Shown: piece after piece, positions 4,121 through 36,312 of the stretch
Position numbering within the stretch: the stretch's first letter is position 1
Layout of the letters: every line of letters begins with the position of its first letter
IMG/VR virus record: IMGVR_UViG_2724679539_000004
Origin: a virus
Taxonomy: Duplodnaviria; Heunggongvirae; Uroviricota; Caudoviricetes
DNA: 37,547 nt
Strand: one strand, 5' to 3'
Notes under the pieces: generated by a model
Told to the model about the DNA's origin: nothing
What the model saw: the letters and a program-made list of their open reading frames with translations, nothing else
Databases searched by the model: none
Position numbers and translations under genes: made by a program

Positions 4121-4242
4121 GAAACCAGAACATGCACACACAAAAAAACCGCTTGCCATGCCTCAATCGGTCAGGTTACATTTCCGCTGCACCTCATAAA
4201 ACGGGTGCCGGGATTCTCAACCCGATACAGAGCAAAGCGCAT

Positions 4243-4263
4243 AACCGCGCAAGCGGTTTTTTT
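4243..4263 (+). terminator. Rho-independent terminator-like hairpin (ACCGC-GCAA-GCGGT + T7)
   Basis: GNRA-loop hairpin followed by TTTTTTT; perfect 15-bp inverted partner AAAAAAACCGCTTGC at 4142-4156. Confidence 0.5.
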
Positions 4264-4442
4264 GTGCGTACTGTATTGCCACGTCTTTTTCGCGTCAGAA
4301 TTATGGCGGGGCGTACGGGGCCGACTTCGGTCGGGCCGGATTCTTTGCTCTCCGGTGTTGAGAACCCTGTACGTCTCGCCACCCCGAGATTCTCAACTCT
4401 GGATGGTGAGTTATTTCTATCACCGAGCAAAGAGGCCACACC

Positions 4443-33227: not shown

Positions 33228-33384
33228 AGCTTCAGCCCCTTGTATCCGTTAAATGATTCGGCAACAATCATCACCCACCACGCGCGTAATCTCACCCCTG
33301 CGCCATTCTCCCGCCACGGCGACAACAAAAAGCAGTAACCCCCTCCGCACGCACATGCGACCATGCCGCACAGGGAGGGAACAG

Positions 33385-34494
33385 ATGACCGACACCACCA
33401 TGCAATTGCTCAGTCAGGGCACAGACCCCGTGAAAATGCCGGATTTTGATATTCTCGCGGAGGGTAAAACGCTGTCAGGCGTGGCAGAGCGCCTGATGAG
33501 TCTGTCACTGACCGACAACCGGGGATTTGAAGCGGACCAGCTCACCATCACGCTGGATGATGCGGATGGTCAGTTGCAGCTACCGCCACGGGGCGCGCGC
33601 CTGACGGTTCTCATTGGCTGGAAAGGAGAACCGCTGACAGAAAAAGGCACTTACATTGTTGATGAAATCGCTCACGAAGGACCGCCGGACAGGCTGACTG
33701 TTTCAGCCAGAAGCGCAGATTTTCGGGATGAATTTAACGTTAAACGTGAGGTGTCCTGGCATGATGTGACCGTTGAGCGTGTGGTATCCGCCATCGCTCA
33801 TCGGTACGGTCTGAAACCGCAAATCAGCGAAATGCTGATGGATATCGAAATCGACCACGCCGACCAGACCGAAGAAAGCGACATGTCCTTTCTTACGCGC
33901 ATGGCGGAAATGCTGGGCGCAATCACCACGGTAAAAAGCGGTAATCTGTTATTCATCATGCCCGGCGGTGGCGTGAACGCACAGGGCCAGCCGTTGCCAT
34001 CGTTCGCCATCACACGCAGCAGCGGCGATCGCCATCAGTTCCGCATTGCGGACCGCGAAGCGTATACGGGGGTACGCGCCTACTGGCTTGATCTTAATTA
34101 CGGGAAAAAGAAAAAAGTCAGCGTGAAACGCCGCAAACCGCCAAAACCCAAAAAGGAGAAAAGCAGCAGCCGTGAAGGTGATTATATGGAAGGCGCGGAA
34201 GGCAATGTGTTTGTGTTACGCAAGACCTATCAGAACGAACAGGCAGCAAGACGCGCAGCGGCGGCAAAGTGGCAGCAACTACAACGCGGAGCCGCATCAT
34301 TCTCCATCACGCTGGCGCGTGGACGTGCAGAACTCTACCCCGAAATGCATGGTACGGTAACAGGATTTAAAAGCGAGATTGATAATCAGGACTGGATCAT
34401 TGCAAAAGCCGAGCACACCATTGATAACAGTGGCTTTACCACGCAGCTTGAGCTTGAGGCAAAAATCCCGGAATGGATAGCGGAAACAGAGTGA
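33385..34494 (+). CDS. D: Tail protein D (late control gene D family)
   Basis: 369 aa from ATG 33385 (SD gggaggga); position upstream of ogr. Confidence 0.8.
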   Translation: MTDTTMQLLSQGTDPVKMPDFDILAEGKTLSGVAERLMSLSLTDNRGFEADQLTITLDDADGQLQLPPRGARLTVLIGWKGEPLTEKGTYIVDEIAHEGPPDRLTVSARSADFRDEFNVKREVSWHDVTVERVVSAIAHRYGLKPQISEMLMDIEIDHADQTEESDMSFLTRMAEMLGAITTVKSGNLLFIMPGGGVNAQGQPLPSFAITRSSGDRHQFRIADREAYTGVRAYWLDLNYGKKKKVSVKRRKPPKPKKEKSSSREGDYMEGAEGNVFVLRKTYQNEQAARRAAAAKWQQLQRGAASFSITLARGRAELYPEMHGTVTGFKSEIDNQDWIIAKAEHTIDNSGFTTQLELEAKIPEWIAETE

Positions 34495-34536: not shown

Positions 34537-34797
34537 ATGTTCCGTTGTCCGCTTTGTGGCGCATCTGCCCGTATCCGCACCAGTCGTCCGGAAAATGATT
34601 CAAACACCGTGCGGCAAAAGTATTACCAGTGTAACAACCTGGAATGCGGCGTATGCTTCTCAACACTGGAAGCTTTCCATAAATTCACATCGAAACACGC
34701 CTCCGGCGTTCACTCATCAGAAGGTATCCCGTGGCATGAGCTGCCAGCTTCACACAGGGGAAACAATCAGATGAGTTTGCCTTTATCTCAGAATTAA
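34537..34797 (+). CDS. ogr: Ogr/Delta-type zinc-finger late transcription activator
   Basis: MFRCPLCGASARIRTSR...YYQCNNLECGVCF is a C4 zinc finger like P2 Ogr; 86 aa (P2 Ogr 72 aa). Confidence 0.8.
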   Translation: MFRCPLCGASARIRTSRPENDSNTVRQKYYQCNNLECGVCFSTLEAFHKFTSKHASGVHSSEGIPWHELPASHRGNNQMSLPLSQN

Positions 34798-34987
34798 CAG
34801 GCAGAATTGCCGGAGTAACAAAAAAGCGATAGATTACGCGCGGGTGCCTTTCGGCTGATGGTCGGAGGGAATACCCGAAGGCCAGATGTGGAAAGGCCCC
34901 GGAAAACATCTCTGTTTAACCGAGGCCCTAACCGCATTACCTTAGCAAGTGATAGGTTAGCGCCTCCCTGAAAAAGGAGCAAGCGCT

Positions 34988-35128
34988 ATGTCGCAAAAAT
35001 CGCTTACGGCCATCACGTTCTGCGTGACGGCAATCCTCATCATCTGGATGCTGCACGGTTCGCTGTGCGAAATACGGATGAGCTTCTGGGGAGCGGAGTT
35101 TGCGGCGTTCTTACAGTGTAAGCAGTAA
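34988..35128 (+). CDS. hok: Hok/Gef-family type I toxin
   Basis: 46 aa; N-terminal TM helix then SLCEIR...EFAAF signature of Hok family; SD aaggag; not in ORF track (<60 aa). Confidence 0.65.
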   Translation: MSQKSLTAITFCVTAILIIWMLHGSLCEIRMSFWGAEFAAFLQCKQ

Positions 35129-35204
35129 GGAAACCGCGACGGGGGAGCAATCCCCCGTCAATCGGTTGCCAGGGTAAGGTCGATAAGGCACCCTATCTCA
35201 CAGA

Positions 35205-35239
35205 CATGAACAACAAACCCGCAGCGTAAAAACTGCGGG
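35205..35239 (+). terminator. Rho-independent terminator after hok locus
   Basis: CCCGCAG-loop-CTGCGGG followed by TTTTCTTTTT. Confidence 0.6.
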
Positions 35240-35296
35240 TTTTCTTTTTGGTGCCCTCACAAATGAGGGCACCATACATAAGCAATAGGCATAACA

Positions 35297-35334
35297 GATC
35301 GATGCAATAAATCCGATCGATAAAAACGATCGAT
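35297..35334. promoter_or_regulatory. Cluster of three CGATCGAT (GATC) motifs upstream of com
   Basis: GATC at 35297, 35316, 35329 within 38 bp; overlaps putative -35/-10 (TATCAT at 35339). Confidence 0.5.
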
Positions 35335-35378
35335 TTGTTATCATATCGGCAGCAGTAACCACACAAGAGGTGCCGCAA

Positions 35379-35576
35379 ATGACGCAAAATGTACGATGCA
35401 AAAATTGCAACAAACTACTTGCCCGCGCCTCATTTCACTACATTGAAATAAAATGTCCGCGCTGCAAAACACTTAACCAGATAACGAGAGCCATCGAGCA
35501 CCCCACACACATGAGGAGTTATGACCGTGGGGATCGCAATCCAGCACCAACCAGCACATACACCGGAACACACTAA
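35379..35576 (+). CDS. com: Com-like zinc-finger translational activator
   Basis: 65 aa; VRCKNCNKLL...HYIEIKCPRCKTLN matches phage Mu Com zinc finger as recalled; overlaps start of downstream methyltransferase. Confidence 0.7.
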   Translation: MTQNVRCKNCNKLLARASFHYIEIKCPRCKTLNQITRAIEHPTHMRSYDRGDRNPAPTSTYTGTH

Positions 35577-36312
35577 GGTTTATCAGACTGACAATGCCAC
35601 GCTCTGTCGTGGGAATGCGCTGGAAATATTGCCGCTGATTGAGCCAGAAAGCATTGATGCCTTAATCACTGACCCACCTTACAGTTCGGGTGCGACACAC
35701 AAGGCCGGACGCACCAACCAGGGCAGCCATGCAAAATATCTGAACGGCGAGAACCTTCACCGCTTTGATGGGTTCGCGGGTGAAAACATGGACGCCCGTT
35801 CGTGGGCTTACTGGACACAATTATGGATGGCACAGGCACACCGCGCAGTCAGGCCGGGCGGTTATGCCCTGGTATTTACTGACTGGCGACAACTACCAGC
35901 TTTAACCGATGCGTTTCAGGCCAGTGGCTTTACATGGCGCGGCATCATTGCGTGGAACAAAGGGAGGGGGTCACGAACACCACATACCGGGTATTTCCGG
36001 CATCAGTGCGAATACATCGTCTGGGGCAGCAAAGGCCATTTAGATAAATCGCCTTCGGGACCGTTCGACGGCTGCATGACGTTCCCGGTTATCCCGTCAA
36101 AGAAAATGCACCCAACCGGAAAACCAGAAGAACTAATGGCGGAACTGGTCAGGACTGTGAATAGTGGCGGAACAGTCCTTGATCCTTTTATGGGGTCAGG
36201 GACAACGGGTGTGGCTGCACTGAAAGCAGGACGCAAATTTATTGGTATAGAAACCAGTGATCATTATTTTGATGTAGCAACACAACGGCTCAAAACGGCG
36301 ATCGAACCATAA
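35521..36312 (+). CDS. DNA methyltransferase, beta-class (DPPY before FxGSGTT)
   Basis: 263 aa; motif IV DPPYSS upstream of motif I FMGSGTTGVAA; CcrM/HinfI-like order, N6-adenine or N4-cytosine. Confidence 0.8.
   Translation: MTVGIAIQHQPAHTPEHTKVYQTDNATLCRGNALEILPLIEPESIDALITDPPYSSGATHKAGRTNQGSHAKYLNGENLHRFDGFAGENMDARSWAYWTQLWMAQAHRAVRPGGYALVFTDWRQLPALTDAFQASGFTWRGIIAWNKGRGSRTPHTGYFRHQCEYIVWGSKGHLDKSPSGPFDGCMTFPVIPSKKMHPTGKPEELMAELVRTVNSGGTVLDPFMGSGTTGVAALKAGRKFIGIETSDHYFDVATQRLKTAIEP

What the first reader, a model, noticed from the sequence alone, without database searches (positions are those of the whole stretch)
34798..35263. Hok-family type I toxin locus between ogr and the methyltransferase module
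A 46-aa ORF has the Hok/Gef signature (TM helix, SLCEIR, EFAAF). Upstream is a 190-bp leader containing a 37-codon ORF (ATG at 34870) that ends just before the hok SD, possibly a mok-like coupling frame. A strong hairpin (GACGGGGGA-GCAA-TCCCCCGTC, 35138-35159), a rho-independent terminator and a 24-bp perfect palindrome (35240-35263) follow. Such modules act in post-segregational killing or abortive infection. I could not locate the Sok antisense RNA.
Basis: partly seen in the sequence, partly recalled or inferred. Interest (0 to 1): 0.5.

Follow-up and report, generated by a model that had tools for sequence, protein, structure and literature searches.

The report
Known hok/Sok toxin–antitoxin cassette in prophage
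This is an ordinary, already catalogued hok/Sok toxin–antitoxin cassette, with a small membrane-killing peptide held in check by an antisense RNA, carried as cargo at the end of a P2-like prophage of E. coli; its missing antisense gene can be placed, and the proposed "mok-like" leader ORF is not real.

Summary
The finding is correct in substance and not new. The 46-aa ORF (34988-35128) passes Pfam's HOK_GEF threshold. RefSeq annotates it "Hok/Gef family protein", and the locus is present in about 1,630 of 5,426 complete E. coli genomes. A 2026 preprint lists the identical peptide (72_1621) among its overexpression-tested homologues and does not list it among the three non-toxic ones.

The RNA layout matches the hok family. 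There is a roughly 405-nt mRNA starting near 34842. Its 5' end (tac) pairs with a 3' element (fbi, 35180-35193), supported by compensatory changes across 18 loci from four genera. The ucb, GAGG-box and dcb switch elements, a protective 3' hairpin (35138-35159) and a terminator (35215-35242) are all present.

This rests on homology to annotated K-12 sokB/sokC. A TTGCTC-17-TAACCT promoter is conserved in 18/18 loci.

The 37-codon leader ORF starts at 34858, not 34870, and is not conserved. No mok frame crosses the hok ribosome-binding site here or in most relatives. The "24-bp perfect palindrome" is a 10+4+10 inverted repeat at 35250-35273, outside the cassette. Interest is low.

The parts
34808..34835 (+). 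Predicted weak hok promoter: -35 TTGCCG (34808-34813), 16-nt spacer, -10 TAGATT (34830-34835)
   Evidence: Read from the sequence. The -10 aligns with TATAAT of K-12 hokC and TAGGAT of hokB, 6 nt upstream of the conserved GGGTGC start. TAGATT or TAGAAT is kept in relatives. It falls below the 9/12 threshold of the simple promoter scan.
34842..35250 (+). Full-length hok mRNA, about 405 nt. The 5' end is inferred; the 3' end is at the terminator T-run.
   Evidence: The Rfam RF01794 model begins at 34842. The 5' GGGTGCC is invariant in 17 of 18 loci. MFE is -180.2 kcal/mol, z = -8.71.
34842..34854 (+). tac (translational activator element). It pairs with fbi in the full-length RNA and with ucb in the truncated RNA.
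   Evidence: A 9-bp perfect repeat links 34842-34850 with 35185-35193. Helices 1 and 2 are 100% and 94% paired, and all four pairs of the extension covary. The alternative pairing with 34891-34900 appears (I7).
34891..34901 (+). ucb / anti-SD box (GAAAGGCCCCG). It pairs with the GAGG box in the closed form and with tac in the open form.
   Evidence: Helix 5, 34895-34901 with 34921-34927, is 100% paired with GC to AU compensation in 7 of 18 loci. It switches to tac on removal of fbi.
34886..34946 (-). Predicted Sok antisense RNA, about 61 nt: 5' end at G34946, a 9-nt single-stranded 5' tail, then one GC-rich hairpin followed by UUUCC. The 3' end is uncertain by about 10 nt.
   Evidence: The annotated K-12 sokC and sokB coordinates both project onto 34946-34886. 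The fold is -26.4 kcal/mol, z = -4.0.
34954..34982 (-). Predicted Sok promoter: -35 TTGCTC (34982-34977), 17-nt spacer, -10 TAACCT (34959-34954), 7 nt, then +1 G
   Evidence: The same layout occurs in 18/18 aligned loci: TTGCTC, TTTACT or TTGCCT, then 17 nt, then TA(A/T)CCT. K-12 sokB has the same architecture, TTGCCG-17-TAAGAT-7-G. It matches only 6/12 consensus positions and was missed by the simple scan.
34922..34967 (+). Sok-target hairpin. The GAGG box (34922-34925) is homologous to the mok SD of R1. The loop is CUUAGCAA (34940-34947). The dcb element GCGCCUC (34961-34967) forms the 3' arm.
   Evidence: The hairpin forms only in the 3'-truncated fold. Mean unpaired probability of the loop rises from 0.14 to 0.80. 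The stem is 95.5% paired across 18 loci.
34974..34979 (+). hok Shine-Dalgarno AAGGAG, 8 nt upstream of the ATG
   Evidence: Read from the sequence. GGAG is conserved in the alignment.
34988..35128 (+). hok coding sequence, 46 aa: a single transmembrane helix followed by the periplasmic SLCEIR...EFAAFLQC tail
   Evidence: Pfam HOK_GEF 29.9 bits against GA 22. PHROG 251 E = 1.3e-22. dN/dS of 0.10-0.37. RefSeq WP_000078916.1. Identical to peptide 72_1621 in Table S2 of the preprint.
35093..35108 (+). Intragenic partner (codons 36-41) that base-pairs with the hok start codon and codons 2-6 (34988-35003)
   Evidence: Helix 8 has 14 pairs, 100% paired in 18 loci. Third codon positions are invariant in 71-75% of codons at both CDS ends, against 11% in the middle. 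An analogous pairing occurs in K-12 hokB.
35132..35167 (+). 3' stem-loop (core 35138-35159). Probable terminal stem of the processed mRNA, protecting it from 3' exonucleases.
   Evidence: Helices 12 and 13 are 99-100% paired, and five pairs carry compensatory changes, for example GC to CG in 9 of 18 loci. The role is inferred from the R1 terminal stem described in PMC9841398.
35180..35193 (+). fbi (fold-back inhibitory element), complementary to tac
35215..35250 (+). Rho-independent terminator of the hok mRNA
   Evidence: The scan finds a 10-bp stem with 6 GC pairs and a T-rich tail. The stem carries compensatory changes across loci (helix 14).

Best explanation
[quoted passage not shown] It is carried as cargo at the ogr-proximal (right) end of a P88/Xuanwuvirus-type P2-like prophage of E. 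coli.

Shown here:
- A weak plus-strand promoter and a roughly 405-nt mRNA (start near 34842) encode the 46-aa Hok peptide.
- The full-length RNA is closed by pairing of its 5' end (tac, 34842-34854) with fbi (35180-35193).
- In that state ucb (34895-34901) holds the GAGG box (34921-34927), and the Sok-target loop is buried.
- The hok start codon is paired with codons 36-41.
- Removing fbi in silico flips tac onto ucb (34891-34900), so the target hairpin 34922-34967 forms and exposes its loop.
- The minus strand carries a conserved promoter (-35 at 34982-34977, -10 at 34959-34954) and a roughly 61-nt tail-plus-hairpin RNA (34946→34886). Its position and shape match K-12 SokB and SokC.

Inferred from the R1 paradigm (PMC9841398):
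- Slow 3' trimming back to the stable hairpin at 35132-35167 activates the stable mRNA.
- Abundant but short-lived Sok pairs with the exposed target, and the duplex is cut by RNase III.
- When Sok synthesis stops, through loss of the prophage or transcription shut-off, the processed mRNA is translated and Hok depolarises the inner membrane and kills the cell.

The most likely biological role is stabilisation of the prophage by post-segregational killing. Phage exclusion or help with lysis are the alternatives. How hok translation is opened without a mok leader frame is not explained.
For: Protein:
- Pfam HOK_GEF is above the gathering score, and PHROG 251 matches at E = 1.3e-22.
- Identity is 39% to Hok of R1 over 31 aa and 31% to HokW over 35 aa.
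- All positions reported as conserved in more than 80% of Hok peptides are present with an offset of 4: C12, T14, L26, C27, E28, E37.
- dN/dS is 0.10-0.37 across 16 comparisons.

Toxicity:
- The identical peptide is 72_1621 (plasmid LRP137) in Table S2.
- The text names only 19_179, 60_1482 and 69_1540 as non-toxic among the 45 tested.

RNA:
- The Rfam hok-leader model matches 34842-35001 at E = 2e-8.
- The full-length fold closes 5' to 3' with z = -8.7.
- The 18-locus consensus has 80 pairs, 98% of cells paired and 20 pairs with compensatory changes, against 1-5 in slid controls. This includes all four pairs of the tac/fbi extension.
- The truncated fold switches to tac/ucb plus the target hairpin. 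The alternative helices are 90.7% paired against 37-53% when slid. Loop accessibility rises from 0.14 to 0.80.

Sok:
- Projection of the annotated sokB and sokC coordinates gives 34946-34886.
- The fold has z = -4.0.
- The promoter layout is conserved in 18/18 loci.

Context:
- RefSeq annotates the ORF as Hok/Gef and the locus lies in 1,628 genomes.
- gpD-ogr-hok synteny recurs in Salmonella P2-like prophages.
Against: - No expression data are available, so the Sok transcript, both mRNA ends and the 3' processing are all inferred.
- The Sok and hok promoters match only 6/12 and 8/12 consensus positions. The simple scan found neither.
- The Rfam score of 44.8 bits is below the family's gathering score of 59.
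- The Sok hairpin is followed by only UUUCC, a poor U-run.
- No mok frame exists. No canonical start codon lies in any frame crossing the hok SD in the window or in 12 of the other 17 loci. Yet the hok AUG is base-paired in both predicted states.
- Predicted SD accessibility stays at 0.28 in the closed, open and Sok-occupied states. The translational switch is therefore not reproduced in silico.
- The biological role (addiction, exclusion or lysis help) is untested for this cassette.
Confidence: 0.88

Rival explanations
1. It is the same cassette, but its main job is to help the phage rather than to stabilise the prophage. On induction Sok disappears, and Hok permeabilises the membrane early, increasing or advancing phage release. 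This is what was shown for hokW-sokW of Stx2 prophage Sp5.
For: PMC8621323 reports several relevant results. sokW RNA vanishes after mitomycin C. HokW appears about 1 h before endolysin. Deleting hokW-sokW halves the released phage. Close relatives of this cassette (about 81% DNA identity) sit in Stx phages.
Against: HokW is a different cluster: 51 aa and 31% identical over 35 aa. The effect in Sp5 was modest, about two-fold. From my own knowledge, P2-like prophages are not induced by the SOS/RecA route that triggered HokW. Many copies sit at prophage ends next to other TA modules, which fits a cargo or addiction role.
Confidence: 0.2
2. It is the same cassette, acting mainly as an anti-phage exclusion (abortive infection) module. 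An infecting lytic phage shuts off host transcription, the labile Sok decays, and Hok kills the cell before the invader matures.
For: [quoted passage not shown] The cassette lies in a prophage-end cargo slot that elsewhere holds HicAB, YafO and Fic/Phd modules.
Against: The same preprint found no enrichment of hok near known defence systems (section heading; discussion). No exclusion data exist for this cluster.
Confidence: 0.2
3. It is an inert relic. The cassette is transcriptionally or translationally silent, as has been proposed for the chromosomal hok loci of E. coli K-12, and persists only by hitch-hiking on the prophage.
For: There is no mok frame. The hok AUG is sequestered in every predicted state. 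A C-to-T change specific to this allele creates TGA at 34969-34971, where relatives read CGA. The preprint notes earlier reports that chromosomal homologues are mostly inactive in K-12.
Against: The coding sequence is under purifying selection, with dN/dS of 0.10-0.37. Long-range RNA helices are maintained by compensatory changes across four genera. Promoters, tac, fbi and the ORF are all intact, unlike the 5'-truncated Salmonella copy in L011. The peptide is listed among the tested homologues and is not among the three named as non-toxic. The family lacks mok throughout, so its absence is not a recent lesion.
Confidence: 0.1
4. The reader's 37-codon ORF (34858-34971) is a functional mok-like leader. 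Its translation up to the hok SD would open the hok initiation region.
For: The ORF ends 2 nt before the hok SD. In R1, mok translation needs to reach only the hok SD.
Against: - The ATG lies 16 nt from the predicted 5' end, inside the tac/ucb stem, with no SD.
- The frame stops after 28 codons in Chuche, which is 94% identical.
- It has no start codon in the Salmonella and Klebsiella loci, and in StxLyz no ORF of 8 or more codons opens at the equivalent ATG.
- The peptide has no Pfam or PHROG match.
- It runs through the region that varies fastest, the Sok target.
- It does not start at the position of mokB or mokC, where the window has no ATG.
Confidence: 0.07

Closest known systems
hok/Sok (parB) of plasmid R1, the paradigm type I toxin-antitoxin system
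   Same: - A small Hok peptide with a transmembrane helix and the SLCEIR...E-AAF motif, 39% identical over 31 aa.
- A roughly 400-nt mRNA closed by tac/fbi.
- A ucb/GAGG-box helix.
- A tac/ucb switch after loss of the 3' end.
- A GC-rich terminal 3' stem.
- A roughly 60-nt cis-antisense RNA made of a tail plus a hairpin, with its promoter next to the hok SD.
These come, compared with PMC9841398.
   Different: - There is no mok reading frame. R1 has a 70-codon mok starting 58 nt upstream of hok and requires it. Here no start codon follows the GAGG box, and no frame with a start crosses the hok SD.
- The leader is 146 nt against 173 nt in R1.
- Hok is 46 aa against 52 aa.
- The cassette is carried on a prophage, not a plasmid.
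Hok cluster 72 (peptides 72_1621 and 72_1589) of Escalera-Maurer et al., bioRxiv 10.1101/2025.08.07.668861
   Same: 72_1621 is the identical 46-aa peptide, and its CDS differs from the window by one synonymous base. 72_1589 is the Stx-phage variant found in L003. The preprint marks the cluster as high-abundance, and neither peptide is among the three it names as non-toxic.
   Different: That study analysed only the coding sequences. It states explicitly that Mok, Sok and the mRNA ends were not analysed. The RNA anatomy given here is therefore additional detail on the same object.
Chromosomal hokB/mokB/sokB and hokC/mokC/sokC of E. coli K-12
   Same: The leader aligns from the -10 through the GAGG box. 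The same Rfam model hits all of them on the hok-sense strand. Sok position and length project directly onto the window. hokB shows the same tac/fbi closure and AUG-to-CDS pairing. The sokB promoter has the same layout.
   Different: The K-12 loci have annotated mok frames; this one has none. The Hok peptides are only about 30% identical. The Rfam score is 44.8 bits against 110-118 bits for the K-12 loci. By NCBIfam the nearest named family is HokA, but at 34 bits against a cut-off of 89.
hokW-sokW of Stx2 prophage Sp5 (PMC8621323)
   Same: It is a prophage-borne hok/Sok system shown experimentally to be a type I TA. Sok antitoxin activity there partly depends on RNase III and Hfq. It falls in the same PHROG, phrog_251 "MokW-like host killing".
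   Different: HokW is 51 aa and belongs to the HokD-like cluster. It is 31% identical over 35 aa. It sits in a lambdoid, SOS-inducible phage. The phage annotation "MokW-like" for this ORF is a family label, not evidence of a Mok.

Membership tests
Hok/Gef toxin family (Pfam PF01848) | Protein scores above the curated Pfam gathering threshold | tested here: met
   29.9 bits against a cut-off of 22, E = 4.1e-7, residues 7-44 on profile positions 5-42 of 42.
Hok/Gef toxin family (Pfam PF01848) | Conserved residues of the family logo (C16, T18, L30, C31, E32, E41; C or Y at position 48) and one N-terminal transmembrane helix | tested here: met
   C12, T14, L26, C27, E28, E37 and C44 are present at a constant offset of 4 from the logo positions quoted. 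The hydrophobic stretch LTAITFCVTAILIIWML spans residues 6-22.
Hok/Gef toxin family (Pfam PF01848) | Toxic when overexpressed | not testable with these tools
   Reported elsewhere. The identical peptide 72_1621 (LRP137) is in Table S2, and the text names only three other sequences as non-toxic among the 45 tested.
hok/Sok type I TA locus (R1 parB type) | Long-range 5'-3' pairing (tac/fbi) that closes the full-length mRNA | tested here: met
   A 9-bp perfect complement. The MFE closes 5' to 3', z = -8.7. There are 11 pairs that are 94-100% paired in 18 loci, four of them with compensatory double changes.
hok/Sok type I TA locus (R1 parB type) | Alternative tac/ucb pairing and release of the antisense target after loss of the 3' end | tested here: met
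   The fold of 34842-35176 switches to tac/ucb plus the target hairpin. The alternative helices are 90.7% paired against 37-53% when slid. Loop accessibility rises from 0.14 to 0.80. This is in silico only.
hok/Sok type I TA locus (R1 parB type) | A cis-encoded Sok antisense gene in the leader: its own promoter, a single-stranded 5' tail and a terminator hairpin | tested here: met
   This is shown at sequence level only. K-12 sokB and sokC project onto 34946-34886. The promoter layout is conserved in 18/18 loci. A 9-nt tail plus hairpin folds with z = -4.0.
hok/Sok type I TA locus (R1 parB type) | Sok is actually transcribed, is unstable, and neutralises hok | not testable with these tools
   No transcript data are available. 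It needs a Northern blot or dRNA-seq and a promoter knock-out.
hok/Sok type I TA locus (R1 parB type) | A mok leader reading frame, starting after the GAGG box and translated at least up to the hok SD | tested here: not met
   There is no ATG at the position of mokB or mokC. No ATG, GTG or TTG lies in any frame that crosses the hok SD in the window or in 12 of the other 17 loci. The leader ORFs differ from locus to locus.
hok/Sok type I TA locus (R1 parB type) | 3' exonucleolytic processing to a truncated, active mRNA that ends at a stable stem | not testable with these tools
   A suitable covarying stem exists at 35132-35167, but processing itself is inferred from R1.
Rfam RF01794 ('sok', in fact the hok mRNA leader) | Score at or above the curated gathering score | tested here: not met
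   44.8 bits against 59, although E = 2e-8 and the full model length 1-157 is matched. The relatives L003 and L013 score 42.1 and 38.3 bits. This is a divergent subfamily that the curated threshold misses.
HokA (NCBIfam NF007290, equivalog) | Score at or above the equivalog cut-off | tested here: not met
   34 bits against 89. It is not HokA; HokA is only the nearest named family.

The most novel reading that the evidence does not exclude
The 46-aa Hok cluster to which this locus belongs (cluster 72, common in E. coli and Salmonella prophages) may run the hok/Sok circuit without any mok leader peptide. Every other R1-type RNA element is kept: tac, ucb, GAGG box, dcb, fbi and AUG sequestration. 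Hok translation would then have to be opened and repressed by a route other than mok coupling. Examples would be direct initiation at the strong AAGGAG after processing, or Sok acting only through RNase III decay. This would be a regulatory variant of a system whose text-book model makes mok obligatory. A second, related point concerns the Sok-recognition segment. It is the fastest-evolving part of the cassette: 5 of 14 window-versus-Chuche differences lie in 9 nt. It also differs among three tandem copies in Salmonella, which suggests selection for mutually orthogonal Sok/hok pairs.
Probability: 0.35. Interest if true: 0.4.

Novelty: already known. Interest (0 to 1): 0.15.

Why it matters
It matters little as a discovery.
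- The gene is annotated in RefSeq and sits in about a third of complete E. coli genomes.
- It belongs to the best-studied type I toxin-antitoxin family.
- This exact peptide appears in a recent survey's table of overexpression-tested homologues, and that survey also reported that hok is enriched in prophages.

The value of the re-examination is practical.
- It gives coordinates for the Sok gene and for all the RNA switch elements, which automated annotation does not provide. The Rfam score is below threshold, and the Rfam "sok" model actually describes the hok-sense leader.
- It removes a spurious mok candidate.
- It flags that this abundant prophage-borne cluster has no recognisable mok. This is a cheap, testable question about how general the mok-coupling rule is.

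Tried and rejected
1. An SD/anti-SD switch. I proposed that Sok binding frees CCUCC (34963-34967) to sequester the hok SD. This would explain mok-independent control. Partition-function calculations gave the same SD accessibility (0.28) in the full-length, truncated and Sok-occupied states. The idea is not supported.
2. The 37-codon ORF as mok. Rejected on lack of conservation and lack of any family match.
3. Non-AUG mok starts after the GAGG box. No conserved near-cognate codon was found.
4. The simple sigma-70 scan. It found neither the hok nor the Sok promoter; its only hit is the com promoter at 35317-35344. The promoter calls therefore rest on homology and conservation.
5. The genome-contig scan with the Hok alignment. 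It returned only six loci, three of them in implausible hosts (Planococcaceae, Vagococcus, Xanthomonas), probably contamination. Diversity was obtained instead from eight exact-protein look-ups.
6. Literature searches for hok together with ogr, P2-like or "type I toxin" plus prophage. These gave no papers.
7. The inverted repeat at 35250-35273 as part of the cassette. Rejected because it is deleted in phage Chuche, whose hok unit is otherwise intact. It is unique in the window.
8. Equating this Hok with HokW because phage records call it "MokW-like". Rejected because HokW is a different cluster.
Full report
**What is in the sequence**

The 46-aa ORF exists at 34988-35128 and reads MSQKSLTAITFCVTAILIIWMLHGSLCEIRMSFWGAEFAAFLQCKQ. 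An AAGGAG Shine-Dalgarno sits 8 nt upstream. A terminator-like stem lies at 35215-35242, followed by a T-run.

Three details in the finding are off.
- The 37-codon ORF begins at ATG 34858, not 34870. It ends at 34971.
- The 190 bp is the ogr-to-hok intergenic gap, not the transcribed leader.
- The "24-bp perfect palindrome" lies at 35250-35273, not 35240-35263. It has two 10-nt arms around a non-palindromic CAAA.

**Context**

The window is a complete P2-like prophage of E. coli.
- An integrase-sized ORF (339 aa, not scanned) lies at the left end.
- The right end runs gpD (33253-34494), ogr (34537-34797), hok, com (35370-35576), a DNA methyltransferase (35521-36312), and then the host gene flk.
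- The nearest phages are P88, Xuanwuvirus P884B11, Chuche and PhiR44_2.

**Protein identity**

- The peptide passes Pfam HOK_GEF, at 29.9 bits against a cut-off of 22.
- It falls in PHROG 251.
- It is 39% identical to Hok of R1 and about 30% identical to HokC and HokW.
- By NCBIfam it is nearest to HokA but far below that cut-off.
- It carries every residue reported as conserved in more than 80% of Hok peptides.
- Relatives form a distinct 46-aa cluster in E. coli, Shigella, Salmonella and Klebsiella.
- dN/dS is 0.10-0.37.

**It is already known**

- RefSeq annotates the ORF as "Hok/Gef family protein" (WP_000078916.1).
- Phage records call it "MokW-like host killing protein".
- The locus occurs at 80% coverage or more in 1,628 of 5,426 complete E. 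coli genomes, with up to nine copies per genome.
- The identical peptide is entry 72_1621 (plasmid LRP137, a high-abundance cluster) in Table S2 of bioRxiv 10.1101/2025.08.07.668861. That paper names only three other sequences as non-toxic among the 45 tested.
- The same paper shows that hok is about four-fold enriched in prophages.

**The hok mRNA**

Rfam RF01794 matches 34842-35001 on the plus strand (E = 2e-8, 44.8 bits, below the gathering score of 59). In K-12 the same model hits the hokB and hokC sense strand, opposite to the annotated sokB and sokC. The model therefore describes the hok leader, and its position 1 marks the mRNA start.

I built an 18-locus alignment from E. coli, E. albertii, Salmonella and Klebsiella. 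It gives a consensus structure of 80 pairs.
- 98% of cells are paired, against 33-42% with slid partners.
- 20 pairs carry compensatory changes, against 1-5 in the controls.

The structure contains these elements.
- tac (34842-34854) pairs with fbi (35180-35193). All four pairs of the helix extension covary.
- ucb (34895-34901) pairs with the GAGG box (34921-34927).
- A 14-bp helix joins the hok AUG and codons 2-6 to codons 36-41. Synonymous sites are frozen at both ends of the CDS. K-12 hokB has an equivalent helix.
- The terminator also covaries.

The full-length fold has z = -8.7.

**The switch**

Deleting fbi in silico (34842-35176) flips tac onto ucb (34891-34900). The hairpin GAGGC...GCCUC (34922-34967) can then form. 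The alternative helices are conserved. Mean unpaired probability of the target loop rises from 0.14 to 0.80.

This reproduces the closed-to-open logic described for R1, where the terminal 3' stem protects the processed RNA (PMC9841398).

**Sok**

Aligning the leader with K-12 hokB and hokC and projecting the annotated sokB and sokC coordinates places Sok at 34946→34886 on the minus strand.
- Upstream lies TTGCTC, a 17-nt spacer, TAACCT, 7 nt, then the starting G. The same layout occurs in 18/18 loci and in sokB as TTGCCG-17-TAAGAT.
- The RNA folds into a 9-nt free 5' tail plus one GC-rich hairpin, z = -4.0.

Some caveats apply. The promoter is weak by consensus and the simple scan missed it. 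The U-run after the hairpin is poor. There are no expression data.

**mok**

The 37-codon ORF is not conserved.
- It stops after 28 codons in Chuche, which is 94% identical.
- It has no start codon in the Salmonella and Klebsiella loci. In StxLyz no ORF of 8 or more codons opens at the equivalent ATG.

There is no ATG at the mokB or mokC position. In the window and in 12 of the other 17 loci, no frame crossing the hok SD contains ATG, GTG or TTG.

This defining feature of the R1 paradigm is therefore tested and not met. In R1, mok translation up to the hok SD is required. How the base-paired hok AUG is opened here is unexplained. My SD/anti-SD hypothesis failed its test.

**Function**

Identity as a hok/Sok cassette is secure. 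The role is inferred.

The cassette occupies a cargo slot just after ogr at the prophage end. In Salmonella P2-like prophages this slot holds one to three hok copies. In other elements hok sits next to HicAB, YafO or Fic/Phd modules.

Prophage stabilisation by post-segregational killing is my first choice. Phage exclusion, and the lysis-helper role shown for hokW-sokW (PMC8621323), remain live alternatives.

**Verdict**

This is a correct identification of an ordinary, annotated element. The only mildly novel thread is that this abundant cluster appears to lack mok.

Noticed in passing
window 35280-36312: Downstream module resembling phage Mu com-mom. A Com zinc-ribbon ORF (35370-35576, PF10122 E = 1.1e-11) overlaps an N6/N4 DNA methyltransferase (35521-36312) by 56 nt. 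Three GATCGAT motifs, each containing a Dam GATC site, lie within 38 bp (35297-35334). They overlap the only sigma-70-like promoter found by the scan (35317-35344). This recalls Dam-dependent control of the Mu mom promoter, a comparison from my own knowledge.
   Followed up: partly
window 35250-35273: Inverted repeat GGTGCCCTCA-CAAA-TGAGGGCACC immediately after the hok terminator. It is unique in the window, precisely absent from phage Chuche, and present in altered form in E. albertii. It may be a small insertion or an extra hairpin between the two modules. Its function is unknown.
   Followed up: partly
window 34842-35001; L017 602-754; L018 667-818: The Rfam family RF01794, named "sok antitoxin (CssrC)", matches the hok-sense strand from the mRNA start to the hok AUG. 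In K-12 its hits lie opposite to the annotated sokB and sokC genes. The model describes the hok leader rather than Sok, so strand calls from it are misleading. This divergent cluster scores below its gathering threshold and therefore receives no RNA annotation.
   Followed up: yes
L023 2005-3141 and L024 2005-3141 (Salmonella enterica): Three tandem hok cassettes sit directly after gpD-ogr in a P2-like prophage, and there are two tandem copies in L015 and L016. The copies keep tac, fbi and the Sok promoter but differ in the Sok 5'-tail/target segment. This suggests non-cross-reacting Sok/hok pairs.
   Followed up: partly
window 34909-34943: The Sok-complementary segment is a hot spot of variation. 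Of 14 differences between the window and phage Chuche over about 415 nt, 8 fall here, including 5 within 9 nt of the Sok 5' tail (34935-34943). Across 18 loci this is the least conserved functional segment, with a mean column identity of 0.71. Only 11 E. coli records carry a leader at least 99% identical to this allele.
   Followed up: partly
L011 2813-3000 (Salmonella enterica): One relative has an intact Hok ORF and 3' elements but has lost the promoter and the tac 5' end, which are replaced by unrelated sequence. It is probably a decaying or silenced copy at the end of a lambdoid tail-fibre region.
   Followed up: no
window 4189-4386: Rfam hits above gathering score for isrK (4189-4263, 63.1 bits) and C4 antisense RNA (4299-4386, 78.5 bits) lie in the early region of the prophage. 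Together they point to a P1/P7/P4-type antisense-RNA immunity or anti-repressor module.
   Followed up: no
window 34969-34971: An allele-specific C-to-T change turns the family-consensus CCG/CGA into TGA just upstream of the hok SD. Chuche and most relatives read CCCCGA or CTCCGA.
   Followed up: yes
L004, L005, L008 (genome contigs): Near-identical copies (72-98% at protein level) of this enterobacterial hok appear in assemblies labelled Planococcaceae, Vagococcus and Xanthomonas pisi. This is most likely contamination of those assemblies by E. coli or Salmonella DNA rather than true hosts.
   Followed up: no
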